The notes: generated from the sequence alone by a model not told the origin. A stretch of 64,000 bases of DNA from GCA_000165345.1 CM000434.1:1024001-1088000, one strand, 5' to 3'. Counted from the first letter of the stretch, positions 44,290-57,932 are shown. Program-made: numbers and translations.

Positions 44290-44362
44290 GCACTCGTGGC
44301 GCAATGGATAGCGCGTAGCCCTCCTAAGGCTGAGGTTGAGGGTTCGAGTCCCTCCGAGTGCG
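44290..44362 (+). tRNA. tRNA-Arg (anticodon CCU)
   Basis: Hand-folded cloverleaf. Acceptor GCACTCG/CGAGTGC. D-arm GCGC-AATGGATA-GCGC. Anticodon arm TAGCC-CTCCTAA-GGCTG, with U33 and A37 flanking CCT. Variable loop AGGTT. T-arm GAGGG-TTCGAGT-CCCTC. Discriminator G; no encoded CCA. A T-rich run (tttctttatttttt) follows immediately, as a pol III terminator would. Confidence 0.85.
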
Positions 44363-51166: not shown

Positions 51167-53279
51167 ATGTCTCAGAGTTCAACACTTTGGAACCAATCCT
51201 ACTCTAGGGAGTTAATAATGGATCATTCGGAAGGGATTGATTGGATTAGTGGCGATGGTTGCCTGGAGAATATTAAAGATTCACATTTTGTGGATTATAG
51301 TGATCCAAATCAAGTTAATATGGAAGATCCTTTAGGAAATAACTTTTATGATTGTACTGATCTTGATGATAGCTTCCATAATTACTTGATGAAGGGTTTA
51401 CTGGGTGAGAATGTTGAAGGTGGCTCAGGCTCTAATAATTTGAATGATGTTTCCTCCGTGAACAGCATCAGAGGTCAAAGTAATGTTGGCGTTACTATTA
51501 GTCACAACAATGATGCCATTTGCCACAACATTGACCACAGAATTGATAGCGTTGGTATTGGAGTGGGATCTCTTGGGGGGGAAGTTGGAGGAGCTTTAGG
51601 GGTGGGTTTAGGAGGAGTGGGAGGAGGAATAGAGATAGGTTTGGGAGTACAAGTAGGAGAGGTGAGAAATCAAGGGGAGAAGGAGTTTGAGAACATAAGC
51701 TGCAGTTACACGGGGAACTCACATTCCCATCAATTGGAGCCACCAAATGAAGATCTCGTAGAAGATCAGAGTAACTGTTACAGGATATCAGCAACTTCAA
51801 ACAATTTGGGTATTTCCAGTAATCATGGACTGTTATTGGGGGCATCTTCCTCTAGCAAAGTCTTGGGAGCTACGCCATCAGCTCAAATATCATCTTCTTT
51901 GTCATCCTCTTCATCATCATCCTCTTCTTCGTTAGCTTCATCTTCATCGTCATCATCTTCATCACCATCATTAACATTGAATTCAGGGCTTCCACCAATA
52001 TCACTACCACCACGAGCTATACCTCCTATAAACTTATCTCAGAGTTTGATGACTCCCACTACATCTGCATCCTCATCATCAGTTAGCCCAATTTCCTTTT
52101 CTCCAAATTCAATGCAATCAGGCCAAAAGCTGATGGGATTTGATCATTCATTCCCAATGGAAAATACACAAAAGAGAGTTCGAATAGAGCCGGAAGAAAG
52201 GATTAGAATGGGTATTTTCGACGATAGTTTAGTGGAATCTGATGTCAAGTTTGCAGATCACCAGATTGTTGAGTTGGATTCAAGTAAAGGAAGAAGGTGG
52301 AGTAACAATTCAACAACTTCAACAATTTCTTCAAACTTTTCAATAAATACAAGTGATGGCGGATGTGTTAGCCATATTAATGATAGCGTAAACAATGAGA
52401 ATCTTGGATTAATGAGCCATGATTTTCAGCAAGACAAGTTTTGTAATACAGAAGATTTAGGATCCCAGAAGCCGAAAATGGCGGACCAAAGCTATGAAAT
52501 GGGAGTAATTGAAGACGAGAACTATTCAATGGGAGGCCAAATGGAGGGGGAATTTTTTATGAACTCGGATAACTACTTAACTGAAGAGGAAAAGCTCAAG
52601 TTAAGGAGGCGAGGAAGGAGGAGAAGACCAGGTAAGTTAAATATTTCTAAACAATTAACAAAGGATCTGACTCTTTATTGTTTTAAATAGGCGAAATAGA
52701 AGCTTGGAAGACTATAATACCTAGAACTACTGTGGATGAAGCTGAGCACTTTGTACAGACAAGTCAATATAGAATGAGACATGTATATAGAGATCCAAGA
52801 GCTGTGAGCTTCGTTTATAGGTAAGTTAAAGATTATGAAAATCATTCAGTATAAGGAGTTTTTTTCTCATTTGGAATCAATTATTTATAGATGTGTACAA
52901 CATGTGGATTGCCAGTATGAGATGAGGATTTACTTAATATCTCACGAAACTTGTTACGTTCAACACAGAGGTTACCATACAGAGGAGAAACAAAAGTACA
53001 AGAGGCCAGGTAAGTTAATTGTTGAAGAGAGGATTTTTCTTAAATCCTTTCTTTTTTTAATTTAGTGTGGATTTGAGTAATTATCTTTTAGGACTCCCTC
53101 AACACACTTTACCGCTCATTGATGAGCTAATAAGAAAAGGCCTTCCTCCAAAGTCAGTAATTGACCATGCAATTCAAATATATCCAGAGGTAGCCGACCA
53201 ATCAAATATTTCAGTACTTTATAGGCAGATTACGAATAGACAACAATATATTAGAAAACGCCAGAGAAATTATGTTTGA
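51167..53279 (+). CDS. Four-exon gene: S/G-rich low-complexity protein whose C-terminus (Arg-rich RRRGRRRRPG stretch plus Cys/His-patterned region) is encoded by three short exons. Exons are 51167..52631, 52691..52820, 52891..53009 and 53092..53279.
   Basis: Track ORF 51167..52690 (507 aa) runs into GGTAAGTT at 52631. Three consecutive GTAAGT donors (52632, 52821, 53010) are matched by TAG or AG acceptors (52690, 52890, 53091). Each junction restores the frame (phases 1, 2, 1). The joined segments are open to a TGA at 53277..53279, consistent with track fragments 52835..53065 and 53067..53279. Joined C-terminus: ...RRRGRRRRPG|EIEAWKTIIPRTTVDEAEHFVQTSQYRMRHVYRDPRAVSFVYR|RCVQHVDCQYEMRIYLISHETCYVQHRGYHTEEKQKYKRP|GLPQHTLPLIDELIRKGLPPKSV...RKRQRNYV. 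Confidence 0.7.
51889..51970 (+). repeat. Coding (TCN)n serine microsatellite (SSSLSSSSSSSSSSLASSSSSSSSSPS)
   Basis: tcatcttctttgtcatcctcttcatcatcatcctcttcttcgttagcttcatcttcatcgtcatcatcttcatcaccatca. Confidence 0.7.
52632..52690 (+). other. Intron 1 (59 nt, GTAAGT...TAG) of gene 51167..53279
   Basis: ccaG|GTAAGTTAAAT...TTTTAAATAG|GCGAA. Joining gives a GGC (Gly) codon and an open frame. Confidence 0.65.
52821..52890 (+). other. Intron 2 (70 nt, GTAAGT...TAG)
   Basis: tttatAG|GTAAGTTAAAG...TTATTTATAG|ATGTG. The alternative acceptor at 52849 gives an immediate stop; this one keeps the frame open. Confidence 0.6.
53010..53091 (+). other. Intron 3 (82 nt, GTAAGT...TAG)
   Basis: aggccaG|GTAAGTTAATT...TCTTTTAG|GACTCC. 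The nearer acceptor at 53065 leads to a TGA after three codons; the 53091 acceptor joins in phase to the final 62-codon exon. Confidence 0.55.
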
Positions 53280-53759
53280 TGGAATTTAATAAAATTTCTG
53301 GCAAAACTTTTTTTAATACCGGTAGAAAGATTGCATGCAGAAAGTTTGCATGCAATAAATTTGAATTATTATCCACATAGAATATAATCACTTTTAGTTT
53401 AGAATAAGCTAAGTATTTTGTAATTTCAAAATAGATCTGACTCTTTGATATTATTGATGATGAAGTTAAAGAGATAAGGGGAATAGTAATGAAAATGGGT
53501 AAATCTGAAAAAAATAAGAAAAGAAAAAGAATAAATAATGAAATTTTCAATAAAATAAATTAGATTTATTTTTCCATCTTAAAGAATTTTTTTTTTGTTT
53601 CTGCAGATAGTTAACAGGAAATTAGTCATGCAGTTGTTTTGGCGCGCAAATTCCTCACAAATAATTTAGTGGAAGGGTAATAAAGATAATAATAAATAAA
53701 AAGTGGAAATAAAAATAAAGGTGGTAGGAAAGGGAGAGAAGAGATTTAAGTAAATTTAC

Positions 53760-53876
53760 ATGGGAATTTTTGGTTTAAAGACGTATGGGTCTGTTTTGGG
53801 TCCAAGAGGAGTGACCCTCAAGGGTTTGGTGGTTTACCTATTAGTAGCATTGGCATTAATGGGAGAGCGAGTCAGG
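53760..53876 (+). CDS. Putative exon 1 of the 54025..56745 gene (39 codons; signal-peptide-like)
   Basis: ATG at 53760 in a relatively GC-richer patch: MGIFGLKTYGSVLGPRGVTLKGLVVYLLVALALMGERVR. It ends exactly on a codon boundary at GTAAGTTG (53877). The acceptor ...AATTAG at 54024 joins in phase 0 to SENIHVFSFEDDEHE... A TTGGCGCGC motif lies 120 bp upstream (53644). Confidence 0.4.
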
Positions 53877-54024
53877 GTAAGTTGAGTTTTTACCATTCAC
53901 ATTTGTTTCCCTCTTCCATTAATAGAGGTTGGGAAAGGTCTGGTGTGAAATTGGAGTAATAATTATTCTTGATTAACTTTTATTTCATAACTTTTTCTTA
54001 ATTAACTATCTAATGAATAATTAG
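53877..54024 (+). other. Putative intron (148 nt, GTAAGT...TAG) between the signal-peptide exon and the main ORF
   Basis: Donor gtcagG|GTAAGTTGAG. The nearer acceptor at 53925 leaves only 16 codons before TAA. The acceptor at 54023/54024 gives a long open frame. Confidence 0.4.
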
Positions 54025-56745
54025 TCAGAGAATATTCACGTTTTTTCCTTCGAGGATGATGAGCATGAGGCTGGAAACCAATACGTCTTTGATAACTTGA
54101 CAAACTCAAATTCAGAACATGAGTTGAACTCCCCCTTTGGAATAGTTCCTTCAAATGAACATCATACCGGCATTGATGCGCATGTGGACAATTCTGATGA
54201 ACACATTTTACAGAAATCCGAGCATAGGAGTTTGTCTGGTCTGGGTGAGGTCGGTAGTTCTAAAAAAGTTTTTGGAGAAGGGGCTACTAGAAGGGAGGTT
54301 GGAGATGAAGTGGAAAGCATCTATAGTGAAGAAGACGGGGGAATATATATGGATACGGAGCAGGATGAGGAAATTGGGGATATAGAGAGTTTTTTAAGCT
54401 TTGATAGTGAATTTGAGAAAAATGAGATGGAAGAGGGGATTATTGGCAATGCTGCTGATAAAGTGAACAAAGTAGCAGTTGGTTTAGATACTGCTCGGGA
54501 AGGTCAGACCGAAGACAAGCAAGAGATAGTACGTAGTACGGAAGAAGTGAGTAAAGGAAAGGCTGATATAAAAGTTAAAAAGAGGACAGGAGAGGAAACC
54601 AAAAAGGAAACTGAGGCAAAAGGAGATGCAGAAGTTGGGATTGAGGGGAAGGAGCACCACCACGTGGCTCGGGAAGCTGTTCAGCAAAAAGGTGAGGCTA
54701 AAGTAATGGGTGAGAAGAAGTCTCAGGAGAAATCCAAAGCGTCTGGGGTTAGTTCTTTGGGGAGATCGAAAAGAAAAAGTGAAGGAGAAAGTGAAGATGG
54801 CGAGGCAACAACAAATAGTAATAGTAGTGAAGAGAAGAAAAAGCCAGAAAGCGGAGTTATTGAGGACTCAGATACCTTATCTGACAAAGTTAAGATAAAG
54901 ACGGAAAATGTTCATATGAAGAAGCATATTAAAACAATTCAAACTCCTGGACAGGAACCTAAGGAGGGGAACCAAACCCAAAATACTCCATATGTTTCAG
55001 TTAGTGCAAATGACTCAGCTAATGCTAATAATTCGGTTAGTGCTAATATTAACGGTTCTATTTCTTCAGTAGTTCCAATTATGAAAGCTGAGGCAGATTT
55101 TTATACAAAAAATACCAATGAAACTTTAAATATAGGAGTTGAAAGTTCTGGGAAGGTTGCTGACGTTCCTAGCGAAGCAACAGCCTTAGGAGAGGGATAC
55201 GTAGGTTCTGGAAAGAATATCACAACAGAAGCAACGAGACAGGGGCCAAGCACTAATATCAAGCAAAAGTCACTAAAGAAAGCAGCGTCTTCAAGCAGAG
55301 ATAAAAGCAAAAGAAAATCAAGCAGGACGGATGATTCTGCTCTAAAAAAGGTTTCTAGAGAATCAAATAAAGGGGAGGGCCTGGAATCTCCTAAATCTGC
55401 TCGTCTAGGATCTAGTAGAGGAGATAATCCCAAGACGACTAAACATAAAAAGCATAAACAATACAAAGATTTGAAATTTAATTCAAAAGAAATAGAAGAT
55501 TCTGAAGCACGTTTCAAAGACAGGTACCGATGTTTGAATGTAAATACAAATATTTTTGAGTCCCTAAGAGTTTTAGATCCTTCTTCTAACCAGACTTGCC
55601 TAACAAATTCAGAGTTTGATGGTTTGAATGTCACGAGAGGTCTCACAGAAGATGATAAAGAACAGAGAAAGGAGTCTAAGCAGAGATTGGGGCCTTTAAA
55701 GAAGATGGAAACAGAAAAGAAAAATTGCTCTTTTTATTCTATTTGGCAGGAATTTACCGATCAAGTGAATAATATGTGTACTCAATTAGAACATAAAGTC
55801 GATTCCAGTTCAAAAAAACCATTAATTGCGGATCTACAGACATCCATTGCCAACATAACCAGTAACTTAAACAATACTGCTACTACTTCTACTACAACGG
55901 TAGCGTTTAATATTACAGAAATTACGACTGAAAATATATCTGGGATAAGAGAAAAGAAAGAAATCAACTCCTCTTCAACTGAAGAGAAGCCAAAAATATT
56001 GAATCTTGCTGGTACTGAAAGAATGGTGGAAGTTCCACAAAATTATTCTAATCCAATAAAGTCAGATGGTGCAAAAAGTGAGAGGAGTAAGATGAATTCC
56101 AAAAGTAAAGTAAGCTGGACAAGAATTCTTCAGAAGATTAGAATATTGAATATTCCTGATATTTATATTCAAGCTACTGCTAAAAAGATACTCAAGTTCA
56201 ATATATATATTTACAGGATATATACGGATAAATACAAGAGAAAAATAATTAAAAGAGTACAGGGAATTCTGAGAAATTTAAAAATAGTAAATAAGTCTCA
56301 AATGATCAAAGATAGGCACTTTTTGGGAGCTTACACGATCTTTGGATCACTATTAACTGCATTATTACTCCTATCTATTGCAACATTTCACGGAAGACAA
56401 TATGCTGAGAAATCTGAAGATATACTGGTTGAGGCAGAAACTATTAAAAAGCTTGGATTTGTGGGAGGTAAAATTAAGATGATAAGCAGCCATCTATCAA
56501 ATTCAGATACAGGAATTGAAAGAGTGGTATTCTCTGATGATCCAAGCTCTATCTGTCAAATGATCTTGAAAAGTAAATCAATTGTAGCCCAGAATCCCAG
56601 TAATATTGATTATACTGAAGAGATAACCGATTCTAAAGACTTAAATTCTATTTTGAACTTAACTACTAGATTGGAAGAGAATAATGAGATTTTACTCCAT
56701 CTCTCAAATGGATTAGCTAAATGTGCTCAGTCTCTTACAATATAA
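54025..56745 (+). CDS. Acidic, K/E/S/T-rich low-complexity protein with a single TM helix near the C-terminus; 5' end uncertain
   Basis: The track ORF begins at a TTG (54097). The frame is open from 54025, the first codon after an in-frame TAG that also forms the acceptor AG. The first in-frame ATG is only at 54349 (MDTEQDEE). The open 108-codon stretch upstream of that ATG in an AT-rich genome argues that it is coding and is fed by the upstream exon. C-terminal hydrophobic helix LGAYTIFGSLLTALLLLSIATF, then a roughly 120-aa tail. Confidence 0.6.
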   Translation, partial: SENIHVFSFEDDEHEAGNQYVFDNLTNSNSEHELNSPFGIVPSNEHHTGIDAHVDNSDEHILQKSEHRSLSGLGEVGSSKKVFGEGATRREVGDEVESIYSEEDGGIYMDTEQDEEIGDIESFLSFDSEFEKNEMEEGIIGNAADKVNKVAVGLDTAREGQTEDKQEIVRSTEEVSKGKADIKVKKRTGEETKKETEAKGDAEVGIEGKEHHHVAREAVQQKGEAKVMGEKKSQEKSKASGVSSLGRSKRKSEGESEDGEATTNSNSSEEKKKPESGVIEDSDTLSDKVKIKTENVHMKKHIKTIQTPGQEPKEGNQTQNTPYVSVSANDSANANNSVSANINGSISSVVPIMKAEADFYTKNTNETLNIGVESSGKVADVPSEATALGEGYVGSGKNITTEATRQGPSTNIKQKSLKKAASSSRDKSKRKSSRTDDSALKKVSRESNKGEGLESPKSARLGSSRGDNPKTTKHKKHKQYKDLKFNSKEIEDSEARFKDRYRCLNVNTNIFESLRVLDPSSNQTCLTNSEFDGLNVTRGLTEDDKEQRKESKQRLGPLKKMETEKKNCSFYSIWQEFTDQVNNMCTQLEHKVDSSSKKPLIADLQTSIANITSNLNNTATTSTTTVAFNITEITTENISGIREKKEINSSSTEEKPKILNLAGTERMVEVPQNYSNPIKSDGAKSERSKMNSKSKVSWTRILQKIRILNIPDIYIQATAKKILKFNIYIYRIYTDKYKRKIIKRVQGILRNLKIVNKSQMIKDRHFLGAYTIFGSLLTALLLLSIATFHGRQYAEKSEDILVEAETIKKLGFVGGKIKMISSHLSNSDTGIERVVFSDDPSSICQMILKSKSIVAQNPSNIDYTEEITDSKDLNSILNLTTRLEENNEILLHLSNGLAKCAQSLTI

Positions 56746-56960: not shown

Positions 56961-57932
56961 CTATAGTTGATGATATACTCCACTATTATTATAGGGAGAA
57001 AGATTCTGGTGGCCATGATAAGTATTTCTATCATTAATATTTTGATGGCTATAAATTGGAATTTGCCCCATTTCAAGATCATCTACTTCAGGGCACCTAA
57101 CTGGCCACCTTACACCATCTCCAACAGGCCTTGATGACTTAGTGTTGAATGGACAAAACCATTGCATAGGATTATGCCCAAATGCTTGTTGTATATTTCT
57201 CTCAGGCCCTAGATCATATCTCCCATATTCAGGACTTTGAGGGCTTAAGCTTTCAATAGTGGTTAAATTTCGAACAATAAAGCCAATATGTAGTCTTGAG
57301 AAGGGGAATAATGCAAGTAATAGTGGTGTAACAAAAACTAACATAACAATAATAGATGTAAGCTTTATGGCTTCAATAGATCTTCCAAGCGGAGTTGGAT
57401 CAGTACCATGATTATATGGCCATAAAGTAATATATTGCTCAACTAGAAACATTGTACCTTGAACAAATAAAAACAAAAGAGAAAGTTGAGCATATATTAA
57501 AAGTTGAATAAAGAACTTCCGATTATAGAATCCAACACAATTATTGATCCATGGACAATGGTGATCCATATTCAAAACACATTTTCCACATTCTGAGCAA
57601 TGATGGGTTCTATCAGGTTTCCAAACCTGACAGACTTTGCAATATCTTCTTCTTTTGGATTCATCTCCAACTCTAAATCCCCATTTTGCTGGAACTCTTC
57701 CTGGCTCTGTATTTGTGCATTGGTAGAAAGATATCAAAAACAAAGCAAAAACAAGATGGAATGCTGCTGATACTGATGCTCCTATATAGTAAATCTCAAA
57801 CAATGGCTGTAATAGAATCACAAAATAACAAGCATACAGCAAAGCAATCATAGTCATAATGAATAGCAGAAAACACGCACCATTTTTGCGTTTTCTAGCT
57901 GAATAGCTTGCCGGCAAACCTCCAGAATTCAT
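56961..57932 (-). CDS. DHHC-type protein S-palmitoyltransferase
   Basis: DHHC-CRD: CKVCQVWKPDRTHHCSECGKCVLNMDHHCPWINNCVGFYNRKFF. Four TM helices flank the domain. True ATG. Confidence 0.92.
   Translation of the reverse strand: MNSGGLPASYSARKRKNGACFLLFIMTMIALLYACYFVILLQPLFEIYYIGASVSAAFHLVFALFLISFYQCTNTEPGRVPAKWGFRVGDESKRRRYCKVCQVWKPDRTHHCSECGKCVLNMDHHCPWINNCVGFYNRKFFIQLLIYAQLSLLFLFVQGTMFLVEQYITLWPYNHGTDPTPLGRSIEAIKLTSIIVMLVFVTPLLLALFPFSRLHIGFIVRNLTTIESLSPQSPEYGRYDLGPERNIQQAFGHNPMQWFCPFNTKSSRPVGDGVRWPVRCPEVDDLEMGQIPIYSHQNINDRNTYHGHQNLSPYNNSGVYHQL

What the first reader, a model, noticed from the sequence alone, without database searches (positions are those of the whole stretch)
53640..54348. 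Probable signal-peptide micro-exon plus 148-nt intron feeding the acidic membrane-protein gene
The 54097 ORF has no ATG for its first 84 codons, yet its frame is open for 108 codons from the TAG at 54022..54024. Upstream, an ATG at 53760 opens a 39-codon hydrophobic peptide (MGIFGLKTYGSVLGPRGVTLKGLVVYLLVALALMGERVR). It ends on a codon boundary exactly at GTAAGT (53877). AATTAG|TCA at 54024 is an in-phase acceptor. The product would be signal peptide, acidic T-rich ectodomain, C-terminal TM and tail. This is a type-I surface-glycoprotein architecture, plausible for an invasion-stage antigen. The exon sits next to the other spliced gene, so this 3-kb stretch holds all four candidate introns in the window.
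Basis: partly seen in the sequence, partly recalled or inferred. Interest (0 to 1): 0.55.

Follow-up and report, generated by a model that had tools for sequence, protein, structure and literature searches.

The report
Signal-peptide first exon of cgd6_4530

Summary
The window is Cryptosporidium parvum chromosome 6 and the gene is cgd6_4530 (CPATCC_0016160, cpbgf_6004530). It is a Cryptosporidium-only orphan encoding a protein of about 945 aa, with an N-terminal hydrophobic signal, a low-complexity ectodomain of about 770 aa, one transmembrane helix and a conserved 115-aa tail.

Ten Cryptosporidium species, from C. parvum to C. bovis and C. ryanae, share the same layout:
- a short ATG exon of 60-126 nt that encodes little more than a hydrophobic signal;
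- a GTAAGT-type donor;
- a phase-0 intron of 134-168 nt with stops in every frame and indels that are not multiples of 3;
- a terminal TAG directly before [S/A]-E-[N/D].

An E2F-type promoter motif lies about 120 nt upstream of the ATG in eight species.

Public models already contain exon 1 and this donor, so nothing here is new. They use three different in-phase acceptors: 54024, 54030 and 54054. The reference C. parvum model uses 54054.

The labels "micro-exon", "T-rich" and "invasion-stage antigen" are not supported. Interest is low.

The parts
53615..53759 (+). Conserved upstream block, taken as promoter plus 5' UTR. It contains no ATG between 53651 and 53759.
   Evidence: It is nearly invariant in 5 species and better conserved than exon 1.
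53637..53650 (.). E2F/DP-type palindrome TTTTGGCGCGCAAA, 123 nt upstream of the ATG.
   Evidence: It is present 112-143 nt upstream of the exon-1 ATG in 8 species. Its core [C/G]GCGC[G/C] is the most abundant C. parvum upstream motif (PMC3734150), and E2F motifs mark open-chromatin promoters (bioRxiv 2025.01.17.633476).
53760..53876 (+). Coding part of exon 1: 39 codons encoding an N-terminal signal (n-region with K7, R16, K21; hydrophobic core LVVYLLVALAL at aa 23-33; c-region MGERVR).
   Evidence: The ATG, frame and length (117 nt in 7 species) are kept, together with the hydrophobic core and the positive charges before it, although 75 of 117 sites vary. C. bovis and C. ryanae have a 20-codon version.
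53877..54024 (+). Phase-0 spliceosomal intron of 148 nt, GTAAGT...TAG.
   Evidence: It has stops in all frames. Between species it shows indels of 5, 9, 1 and 8 nt and lengths of 134-168 nt. The donor is GTAAGT in 8 of 10 species and GTATGT or GTAGGT in the other two.
53973..53977 (+). TTAAC, the best conserved branch-point-like motif (A at 53976, 49 nt before exon 2). It is followed by a pyrimidine-rich, AG-free stretch.
   Evidence: A YTAAC motif lies 42-57 nt upstream of the TAG in most species. The AG-free zone before the TAG is 66 nt here, 49-66 nt in the relatives, and 148 and 162 nt in C. ryanae and C. bovis. This is inference; the genus has no clear branch-point consensus (PMC2483917).
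54022..54024 (+). It is also the in-frame stop that closes the exon-2 frame upstream.
   Evidence: It is present in 10 of 10 species directly before [S/A]E[N/D]. It lies inside an invariant 17-mer, AATAATTAGTCAGAGAA (54016-54032), in 5 species.
54025..54054 (+). First 10 codons of exon 2 (SENIHVFSFE). This is the disputed segment, with alternative in-phase AGs ending at 54030 (GAG) and 54054 (GAG) that other public models use, and an out-of-phase CAG ending at 54028.
   Evidence: In 8 species it has 15 variable sites, split 5/1/9 by codon position, and no indels. The last 30 nt of the intron have 27 of 30 sites variable, split 9/9/9. The +6 AG is missing in C. bovis and C. ryanae. The +30 AG is missing in those two and in L009.
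54025..56745 (+). Exon 2: 906 codons plus the TAA stop.
   Evidence: It matches the annotated Cryptosporidium proteins P0001-P0006 over their full length.
54349..54351 (+). ATG used as the start in the original 798-aa model (XP_627784.1). It is not a conserved start.
   Evidence: The first in-frame ATG of exon 2 falls anywhere from codon 32 to codon 108 across species.
56323..56388 (+). Single transmembrane helix LGAYTIFGSLLTALLLLSIATF (aa 806-827), followed by a conserved 115-aa tail.

Best explanation
The region is the 5' end of the two-exon gene cgd6_4530 of Cryptosporidium parvum.

Transcription starts downstream of a conserved E2F-type site at 53637-53650 (inferred). The first exon carries a short 5' UTR and 39 codons (53760-53876) that encode only an ER-targeting signal: a positively charged n-region and a 13-residue hydrophobic core.

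The spliceosome removes a phase-0 GTAAGT...TAG intron, 53877-54024. It most likely uses a branch point in the conserved YTAAC/pyrimidine region about 50 nt upstream and the first AG downstream of it (inferred). Exon 1 is thereby joined to SENIHVFSFEDDEHE...

The 945-aa precursor enters the ER, and the signal is probably cleaved near the exon junction (inferred). The result is a type I membrane protein: a lumenal or extracellular ectodomain of about 770 aa that is low-complexity and carries N-glycosylation sequons, one TM helix (aa 806-827), and a genus-conserved 115-aa cytosolic tail.

Shown here: the sequence features, their conservation in ten species, the codon-like evolution immediately after the TAG, and the hydropathy profile.

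Inferred: actual splicing, cleavage of the signal, topology, and the promoter.

Confidence is about 0.93 that exon 1 and the donor at 53877 are real, and about 0.65 that 54024 is the main acceptor. The figure given in the confidence field is for the full statement, including that acceptor.
For: Annotated orthologs in C. tyzzeri and C. meleagridis have exactly this junction. All modern C. parvum and C. hominis models share exon 1, and almost all share the donor.

DNA alignment of five species shows an invariant ATG and GTAAGT, no indels in exon 1, and indels that are not multiples of 3 plus stops in the intron.

A profile search found distant orthologs. Their loci show the same exon-intron-exon plan. 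In C. bovis and C. ryanae, a 20-codon signal exon is followed by a 166-168-nt intron and then TAG|TCAGAAAACATT or TAG|GCGGAAAATATT, encoding S/A-E-N-I.

The TAG is present in 10 of 10 species. The rival +6 AG is present in 8 of 10 and the +30 AG in 7 of 10.

There is a sharp change of evolutionary mode exactly at 54024|54025. Upstream, 27 of 30 sites vary, spread evenly across positions. Downstream, 15 of 30 vary, with 9 at third and 1 at second codon positions (P about 0.02-0.03).

An AG-free zone of 49-162 nt precedes the TAG in 9 of 10 species.

All three introns of the neighbouring gene are GTAAGT...TAG. GTAAGT opens 84% of the genus's introns (PMC2483917).

The exon-2 frame is closed by the TAG in every species, and its first ATG is not conserved.

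An E2F motif lies 112-143 nt upstream of the ATG in 8 species.

The protein has only two hydrophobic segments.
Against: No transcript data could be examined.

The manually curated C. parvum IOWA-ATCC and BGF model (P0006, 935 aa) and three C. hominis models end the intron at 54054. Their authors state that their introns are 100% RNA-seq supported (PMC8744675).

That downstream AG follows the best pyrimidine tract in the region (GTTTTTTCCTTCGAG), whereas the TAG at 54024 is preceded by an A-rich stretch. Several of the 'synonymous' changes in 54041-54051 are T/C transitions, which a pyrimidine tract would also tolerate.

Exon 1 shows no codon periodicity: variable sites split 26/23/26 by codon position. 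Its coding status therefore rests on the retained frame, length, ATG and hydrophobic core.

No signal-peptide predictor was available, and the n-region is unusually long (21 aa).
Confidence: 0.65

Rival explanations
1. Exon 1 and the donor are the same, but the intron ends at the AG at 54053-54054, giving a 178-nt intron. The mRNA then reads ...ERVR|DDEHEAG and the protein is 935 aa. This is the current reference model (CPATCC_0016160, cpbgf_6004530).
For: P0006 and the C. hominis models P0013 and P0015 use this junction. The annotation paper says all its introns are RNA-seq supported. The AG is preceded by the pyrimidine tract TTTTTTCCTTC, and a YTNAY motif (TTCAC) lies 16 nt upstream (inference).
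Against: The acceptor is GAG, which is the disfavoured -3 base according to general knowledge of acceptor preferences. The homologous AG is absent in L009 (GAA), C. ryanae and C. bovis. The 30 nt it would place in the intron show codon-like substitution, no indels and a conserved peptide S/A-E-N/D-x-H/E across the genus. Three other AGs lie between the conserved branch-point-like region and this one.
Confidence: 0.22
2. Exon 1 and the donor are the same, but the acceptor is the AG at 54029-54030, giving a 154-nt intron. The mRNA then reads ...ERVR|NIHVFSF and the protein is 943 aa. These are the models KAL5368333.1 and WKS78569.1, with C. hominis KAL3127807.1 as the equivalent.
For: Three public models use it. 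It is only 6 nt from the TAG, so it could be used as a tandem acceptor alongside it.
Against: It is also a GAG acceptor. It is absent in C. bovis and C. ryanae, which have GAA there. The two skipped codons behave as codons: TCA, TCG, TCT, GCT and GCG for S/A, and GAG or GAA for E.
Confidence: 0.08
3. There is no intron. The mRNA starts inside or after the supposed intron, translation starts at ATG 54349 (798 aa, the original 2004 model XP_627784.1), and the 39-codon ORF is a chance ORF or an upstream ORF.
For: This was the original annotation. Most Cryptosporidium genes lack introns: about 90% in PMC4637869.
Against: The stretch 54025-54348 is open in all species, has only 3n indels, and holds genus-conserved motifs such as SPFGIVPS and LPFGIPPS. 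The position of the first ATG is not conserved. Exon 1, GTAAGT and TAG are conserved in ten species. The protein would also lose its only N-terminal targeting signal.
Confidence: 0.02
4. The long ORF is a downstream exon of the upstream gene. This is the 962-aa model CAD98269.1, and a 1178-aa fused model exists in the assembly GCA_027243965.1. Alternatively, the two genes share one polycistronic transcript.
For: Two public models fuse the genes. Polycistronic transcripts are reported in C. parvum.
Against: The upstream gene has its own conserved stop at 53277-53279. The 480-nt spacer holds a conserved E2F site and an ATG exon with a signal sequence. The fused models need weak donors. In C. bovis and C. 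ryanae the neighbouring upstream genes are different.
Confidence: 0.02
5. The gene structure is as in the best explanation, but the N-terminal hydrophobic segment is an uncleaved signal anchor. The protein would then be a two-pass hairpin, with both ends cytosolic and the low-complexity region lumenal.
For: The n-region is 21 aa long with three basic residues. The core is 13 residues and is followed by charged ERVR. The -3/-1 positions (A30-x-A32 or L33-x-G35) are not clear-cut.
Against: C. bovis and C. ryanae have a classical 20-aa signal with almost no n-region. This suggests that the function of the exon is targeting rather than anchoring.
Confidence: 0.2

Closest known systems
Public gene models CTYZ_00001657 (C. 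tyzzeri, P0002) and cmbei_6004530 (C. meleagridis, P0004)
   Same: They have an identical exon 1, donor and acceptor, with the junction ...ERVR|SENIHVF or ...ERAK|SENIHIF, and products of 945 and 944 aa.
   Different: Nothing differs structurally.
Reference C. parvum models CPATCC_0016160 and cpbgf_6004530 (QOY41341.1, WRK33061.1; P0006, 935 aa)
   Same: They are the same gene, with the same exon 1 and the same GTAAGT donor at 53877.
   Different: The intron ends 30 nt further downstream, at 54054, so the ten residues SENIHVFSFE are missing. My ten-species comparison favours including them.
[quoted passage not shown]
   Same: It has the same ORF and the same C-terminal TM.
   Different: It has no exon 1, starts at ATG 54349, and lacks the signal sequence and 108 conserved codons.
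The three introns of the neighbouring upstream gene (52632-52690, 52821-52891, 53010-53091)
   Same: They have a GTAAGT donor and a TAG acceptor, are AT-rich, and lie on the same strand.
   Different: They are shorter (59-82 nt against 148 nt), are in phases 1, 2 and 1 rather than 0, and lie inside the protein rather than at the signal-peptide boundary.
Two-exon secreted-protein genes of other apicomplexans, in which a short first exon encodes the signal sequence (for example Plasmodium exported-protein genes). This comparison rests on my own knowledge and is a lead, not a test.
   Same: A short first exon encodes essentially only the hydrophobic signal, and an intron sits right after it.
   Different: There is no RxLx[EQD] export motif in the first 100 residues (read). 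The protein has no detectable homolog outside Cryptosporidium.

Membership tests
U2-type GT-AG spliceosomal intron (Cryptosporidium style) | 5' end GTAAGT, found in 84% of the genus's introns (PMC2483917) | tested here: met
   GTAAGT lies at 53877-53882. It is invariant in 8 of 10 species, with GTATGT or GTAGGT in the other two.
U2-type GT-AG spliceosomal intron (Cryptosporidium style) | 3' end YAG, in phase with the flanking reading frames | tested here: met
   TAG at 54022-54024 is in phase 0 and present in 10 of 10 species. The rival acceptors at 54030 and 54054 are GAG.
U2-type GT-AG spliceosomal intron (Cryptosporidium style) | Non-coding behaviour: AT-rich, stops in all frames, and length changes between species that are not multiples of 3 | tested here: met
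   G+C is 27.7%, there are 5-6 stops per frame, and lengths are 134-168 nt with indels of 1, 5, 8 and 9 nt. At 148 nt it is longer than the annotated mean of 99 nt.
U2-type GT-AG spliceosomal intron (Cryptosporidium style) | Branch point upstream of the acceptor | tested here: inconclusive
   Candidates are a YTAAC 42-57 nt upstream, conserved in most species, and a CTAAT 12 nt upstream. The genus has no clear branch-point consensus.
U2-type GT-AG spliceosomal intron (Cryptosporidium style) | Absent from mature mRNA | not testable with these tools
   No RNA reads are accessible. The only indirect support is a general statement that the annotated CpIA introns are RNA-seq supported, and that annotation uses a different acceptor. 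A scan of metagenome contigs for the spliced junction found nothing.
Sec-type N-terminal signal peptide | Basic n-region followed by a hydrophobic core of 7-15 residues within about the first 40 aa | tested here: met
   K7, R16 and K21 are followed by LVVYLLVALAL (best 11-aa Kyte-Doolittle mean 3.08). The same pattern holds in all ten species, with best 11-aa means of 2.4-3.5, and only one species has an acidic residue before the core.
Sec-type N-terminal signal peptide | c-region with small residues at -3 and -1, and actual cleavage | tested here: inconclusive
   Possible sites are A30-L-A32|L and L33-M-G35|E. No predictor such as SignalP was available, and there are no protein data.
Type I single-pass membrane protein | One internal or C-terminal TM helix besides the signal, with the bulk of the protein on the N-terminal side | tested here: met
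   Only two segments have a 19-aa mean hydropathy above 1.4, at aa 12-38 and aa 804-829. The tail is 115 aa. Orientation is inferred.
Apicomplexan invasion adhesins and mucin-like surface antigens (TRAP/TSP family, gp900, gp40/15) | Adhesive domains (TSP1, Apple, EGF, vWA) or long Ser/Thr mucin runs | tested here: not met
   Pfam gives no hit above threshold. Thr is 6.9% and Ser 11.3% of the ectodomain, with one short TATTSTTT patch. The tail ends ...AKCAQSLTI, without the Trp-containing acidic end that I recall as typical of TRAP-family tails.
Apicomplexan invasion adhesins and mucin-like surface antigens (TRAP/TSP family, gp900, gp40/15) | Expression in invasive stages or location in secretory organelles | tested here: inconclusive
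   The only data found place the gene in expression cluster 69 (membership 0.97) with DNA polymerase alpha and epsilon, XPG, PDI, Sec1 and a Rab acceptor. The time profile was not retrieved, and no localisation data were found.
Micro-exon | Exon of at most about 30 nt (definition from my own knowledge) | tested here: not met
   The coding part of exon 1 alone is 117 nt, or 60 nt in C. bovis and C. ryanae. It is a short first exon, not a micro-exon.

The most novel reading that the evidence does not exclude
The intron may have three in-phase tandem acceptors (54024, 54030, 54054) that are all used in vivo. That would give N-terminal isoforms differing by 2 or 10 residues right at the mature N-terminus, in a genus where only three alternatively spliced genes have been reported. 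Alternatively, the reference C. parvum annotation may simply be 30 nt off at this gene.
Probability: 0.2. Interest if true: 0.3.

Novelty: already known. Interest (0 to 1): 0.15.

Why it matters
The value lies mainly in annotation. The finding shows that reading raw sequence can recover a real signal-peptide exon that the first C. parvum annotation missed.

It also flags a gene for which five different public 5' models coexist (798, 935, 943, 945-type and 962 aa). The ten-species comparison gives a concrete reason to prefer the TAG at 54024. That would restore ten conserved residues (SENIHVFSFE) to the reference model and would fix the predicted mature N-terminus of a fast-evolving protein (dN/dS 0.54 between C. 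parvum and C. hominis) that is found only in Cryptosporidium.

No new biology follows from it.

Tried and rejected
- Pfam scan of the protein: only a sub-threshold Svf1_C hit (E 0.023), dismissed.
- Profile search of 1.84 billion representative proteins: seven hits. The five whose loci I fetched lie next to a DHHC gene as in the window, and two of those are named assemblies of C. ryanae and C. bovis. There is no family outside Cryptosporidium.
- Profile against PDB sequences: no hit.
- AlphaFold2 of the conserved C-terminal 272 aa with a 10-sequence alignment: all-helical but mean pLDDT 48 and pTM 0.17. I ran no fold search because a model this poor gives meaningless matches.
- Full-text search for cgd6_4530: no paper mentions it in its main text.
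- Supplements of the IOWA-ATCC annotation paper and of a 2026 sporozoite proteome are not held.
- Scan of JGI metagenome contigs for any of the three spliced junctions: no match.
- Rfam scan of the whole window: only one tRNA, and nothing in this region.
- Intron RNA structure: a hairpin in the 5' half, but z -1.6 and no covariation, so not pursued.
- The 11-codon mini-exon inside the intron in the chipmunk genotype I model: rejected as a conserved feature. The homologous C. parvum frame starts with TAA TAG, and L008 has no GT at the corresponding donor position.
- Myristoylation of Gly2: rejected, because Leu at position 6 does not fit the consensus as I recall it.
- PEXEL-like export motif: none in the first 100 residues.


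Full report
**1. The observation**

- ATG 53760 is preceded by an in-frame TAA 9 nt upstream. It opens 39 codons, MGIFGLKTYGSVLGPRGVTLKGLVVYLLVALALMGERVR, which end at 53876.
- GTAAGT follows at 53877.
- The next 148 nt (27.7% G+C) carry 5-6 stops in each frame and end AATTAG at 54024.
- That TAG is an in-frame stop for the downstream frame. The frame is then open for 906 codons, to the TAA at 56743-56745.
- The first in-frame ATG is at 54349.

The arrangement is unlikely to be chance.
- 81 of 20,000 shuffles of 53280-54024 contain an ATG-ORF of at least 30 codons ending in phase on GTAAGT.
- 108 open codons have P of about 7e-4 at the window's stop-triplet frequency.
- GTAAGT occurs 17 times on the + strand of the window and 4 times on the - strand. 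Four of the + strand copies lie between 52632 and 53877.

**2. Identity of the gene**

The joined product matches annotated Cryptosporidium proteins over 100% of its length. The locus is C. parvum chromosome 6, gene cgd6_4530 (CPATCC_0016160, cpbgf_6004530).

Public 5' models disagree.

| Model | Length | Structure |
|---|---|---|
| XP_627784.1 | 798 aa | starts at ATG 54349, no intron |
| CAD98269.1 | 962 aa | fused to the upstream gene, acceptor 54024 |
| QOY41341.1, WRK33061.1 | 935 aa | exon 1 and donor 53877, acceptor 54054 (...ERVR\|DDEHEAG) |
| KAL5368333.1, WKS78569.1 | 943 aa | same exon 1 and donor, acceptor 54030 (...ERVR\|NIHVF) |

One C. hominis model (CUV06879.1) even uses a different donor. 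The two-exon structure is therefore already public. Only the 3' end of the intron is unsettled.

**3. Comparative test, close species**

I fetched the orthologous loci of C. tyzzeri, C. hominis, C. meleagridis and chipmunk genotype I and aligned them.
- The ATG and GTAAGT are invariant, and exon 1 has no indel.
- The intron has indels of 5, 9, 1 and 8 nt and stops in all frames.
- A 17-mer around the acceptor, AATAATTAGTCAGAGAA (54016-54032), is invariant.
- Upstream, a block of about 145 nt (53615-53759) is better conserved than exon 1 itself. It contains TTTTGGCGCGCAAA at 53637-53650.
- No ATG occurs between that motif and 53760.

**4. Comparative test, distant species**

A profile search of 1.84 billion representative proteins found five further orthologs and nothing outside the genus. 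I fetched their loci. They include C. ryanae (GCA_009792415.2) and C. bovis (GCA_009768925.2), identified. They also include GCA_027243965.1, which is probably a C. canis isolate judging by its neighbouring accession number (inference), and two unnamed Logan assemblies.

All ten species show the same plan.
- Exon 1 is an ATG exon of 117 nt in seven species, 126 nt in one, and 60 nt in C. bovis and C. ryanae (MFWNYHLLILIIINSVNKSQ and MCWSYYLLIFIIISIANETQ).
- The donor is GTAAGT in eight, and GTATGT or GTAGGT in the other two.
- The intron is in phase 0 and 134-168 nt long.
- It ends in a TAG immediately before [S/A]-E-[N/D]-x-[H/E].

The rival in-phase AG at +6 is absent in C. bovis and C. ryanae. 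The rival at +30 is absent in those two and in L009.

The mode of evolution changes exactly at the TAG (eight species).

| Segment | Variable sites | By position (1/2/3) |
|---|---|---|
| Last 30 intron nt | 27 of 30 | 9/9/9 |
| First 30 nt after the TAG | 15 of 30 | 5/1/9 |

For the second segment, the probability of so many third-position sites is 0.03 and of so few second-position sites is 0.02. It has no indel.

An AG-free stretch of 49-66 nt precedes the TAG in seven species, 148 and 162 nt in C. ryanae and C. bovis, and 21 nt in one species. A YTAAC motif lies 42-57 nt upstream in most. The TAG is therefore the first AG downstream of the most plausible branch region.

The three introns of the neighbouring gene are all GTAAGT...TAG.

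**5. Why the old start is wrong**

The exon-2 frame is closed by the TAG in every species. Its first in-frame ATG lies anywhere from codon 32 to codon 108. The stretch before that ATG holds genus-conserved motifs such as SPFGIVPS and LPFGIPPS and only 3n indels. Translation must therefore enter from exon 1.

**6. What exon 1 encodes**

Its variable sites show no codon periodicity, at 26/23/26. Its amino-acid sequence is therefore hardly constrained.

What is kept is the ATG, the frame, the length, a hydrophobic core (best 11-residue Kyte-Doolittle mean 2.4-3.5) and basic residues before it, with an acidic residue there in only one species. That is how signal peptides evolve. C. bovis and C. 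ryanae have a textbook 20-residue version.

Hydropathy finds only one other hydrophobic segment, aa 806-827, followed by a 115-aa tail. The architecture is thus signal, ectodomain, TM and tail. Cleavage could not be predicted here, and an uncleaved signal anchor remains possible.

**7. Promoter**

TTTTGGCGCGCAAA fits the E2F/DP site, with core [C/G]GCGC[G/C] flanked by T and A. This is the most abundant upstream motif in C. parvum (PMC3734150) and marks ATAC-seq promoter peaks (bioRxiv 2025.01.17.633476). It sits 112-143 nt upstream of the exon-1 ATG in eight species. That argues for transcription starting just upstream of exon 1. This is inference.

**8. The functional guesses**

- The ectodomain is acidic only in aa 40-200 (40 D+E against 10 K+R). 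Overall it is balanced (124 against 121).
- It is rich in K, S and E, with 6.9% Thr and 18 N-x-S/T sequons.
- There is no Pfam domain, no PDB relative and no confident structure (pLDDT 48).
- In the 2013 expression clustering, the gene sits with DNA polymerases alpha and epsilon, XPG, PDI, Sec1 and a Rab acceptor. That does not suggest a typical invasion-stage antigen, although the time profile was not retrieved.
- The gene evolves fast (dN/dS 0.54 between C. parvum and C. hominis).

**9. The acceptor question**

The curated IOWA-ATCC annotation uses 54054, and its authors say that all introns are RNA-seq supported (PMC8744675). That AG also follows the best pyrimidine tract in the region.

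Against it:
- it is a GAG;
- it is not conserved;
- the 30 nt it would remove evolve as codons and encode a peptide conserved across the genus.

I put 0.65 on 54024, 0.22 on 54054 and 0.08 on 54030 as the main site. Mixed use is possible. No transcript evidence was reachable, and a junction scan of metagenome contigs was empty.

**10. Verdict**

The structural interpretation is essentially right and already known. The acceptor is probably right but contested by the reference model. The labels 'micro-exon', 'T-rich' and 'invasion-stage antigen' are not supported. This is an ordinary gene-structure feature of minor curation value.

Noticed in passing
window 52632-53279 (+): The upstream gene (ORF from 51167) has three short GTAAGT...TAG introns: 52632-52690 (59 nt), 52821-52891 (71 nt) and 53010-53091 (82 nt). 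Its stop is at 53277-53279. Public models of its orthologs disagree in length (497-506 aa against 626-630 aa), so some of them miss these exons.
   Followed up: partly
window 53330-53356: There is an inverted pair of GCATGC (AP2_1-like) motifs, ATTGCATGCAGAAAGTTTGCATGCAAT, about 50 nt after the upstream gene's stop. It is conserved in the five aligned species, and GCATGC motifs are also found in the more distant L007, L008 and L009. It could belong to the 3' end of the upstream gene or to the promoter of cgd6_4530.
   Followed up: partly
window 53615-53759: This non-coding block of about 145 nt is more conserved than the coding exon that follows it (90% against 77% identity to chipmunk genotype I). 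It includes the E2F-type palindrome at 53637-53650.
   Followed up: partly
window 53893-53954 (inside the intron): Two blocks, CCATTCACA (53893-53901) and TGTGAAATTGG (53944-53954), are almost unchanged across six AT-rich species (one species has one substitution in each block). They can pair into a hairpin around a second small stem. The folding z-score is only -1.6 and there is no covariation. The chipmunk genotype I public model makes an 11-codon mini-exon out of the second block.
   Followed up: partly
window 54025-54030: Three AGs lie within 6 nt of each other (TAG, CAG, GAG). The best-looking one by consensus, CAG ending at 54028, is out of phase and would truncate the protein after about 23 codons. 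It is absent in four of the ten species.
   Followed up: partly
window 44290-44362 (+): This is the only Rfam match in the window: a tRNA gene (67 bits).
   Followed up: no
   Followed up: no
window 56961-57932 (-): A DHHC palmitoyltransferase gene converges on the 3' end of cgd6_4530, with a spacer of about 215 nt. This neighbour is syntenic in all nine fetched loci, including C. bovis and C. ryanae, whereas the upstream neighbours differ in those two species.
   Followed up: no
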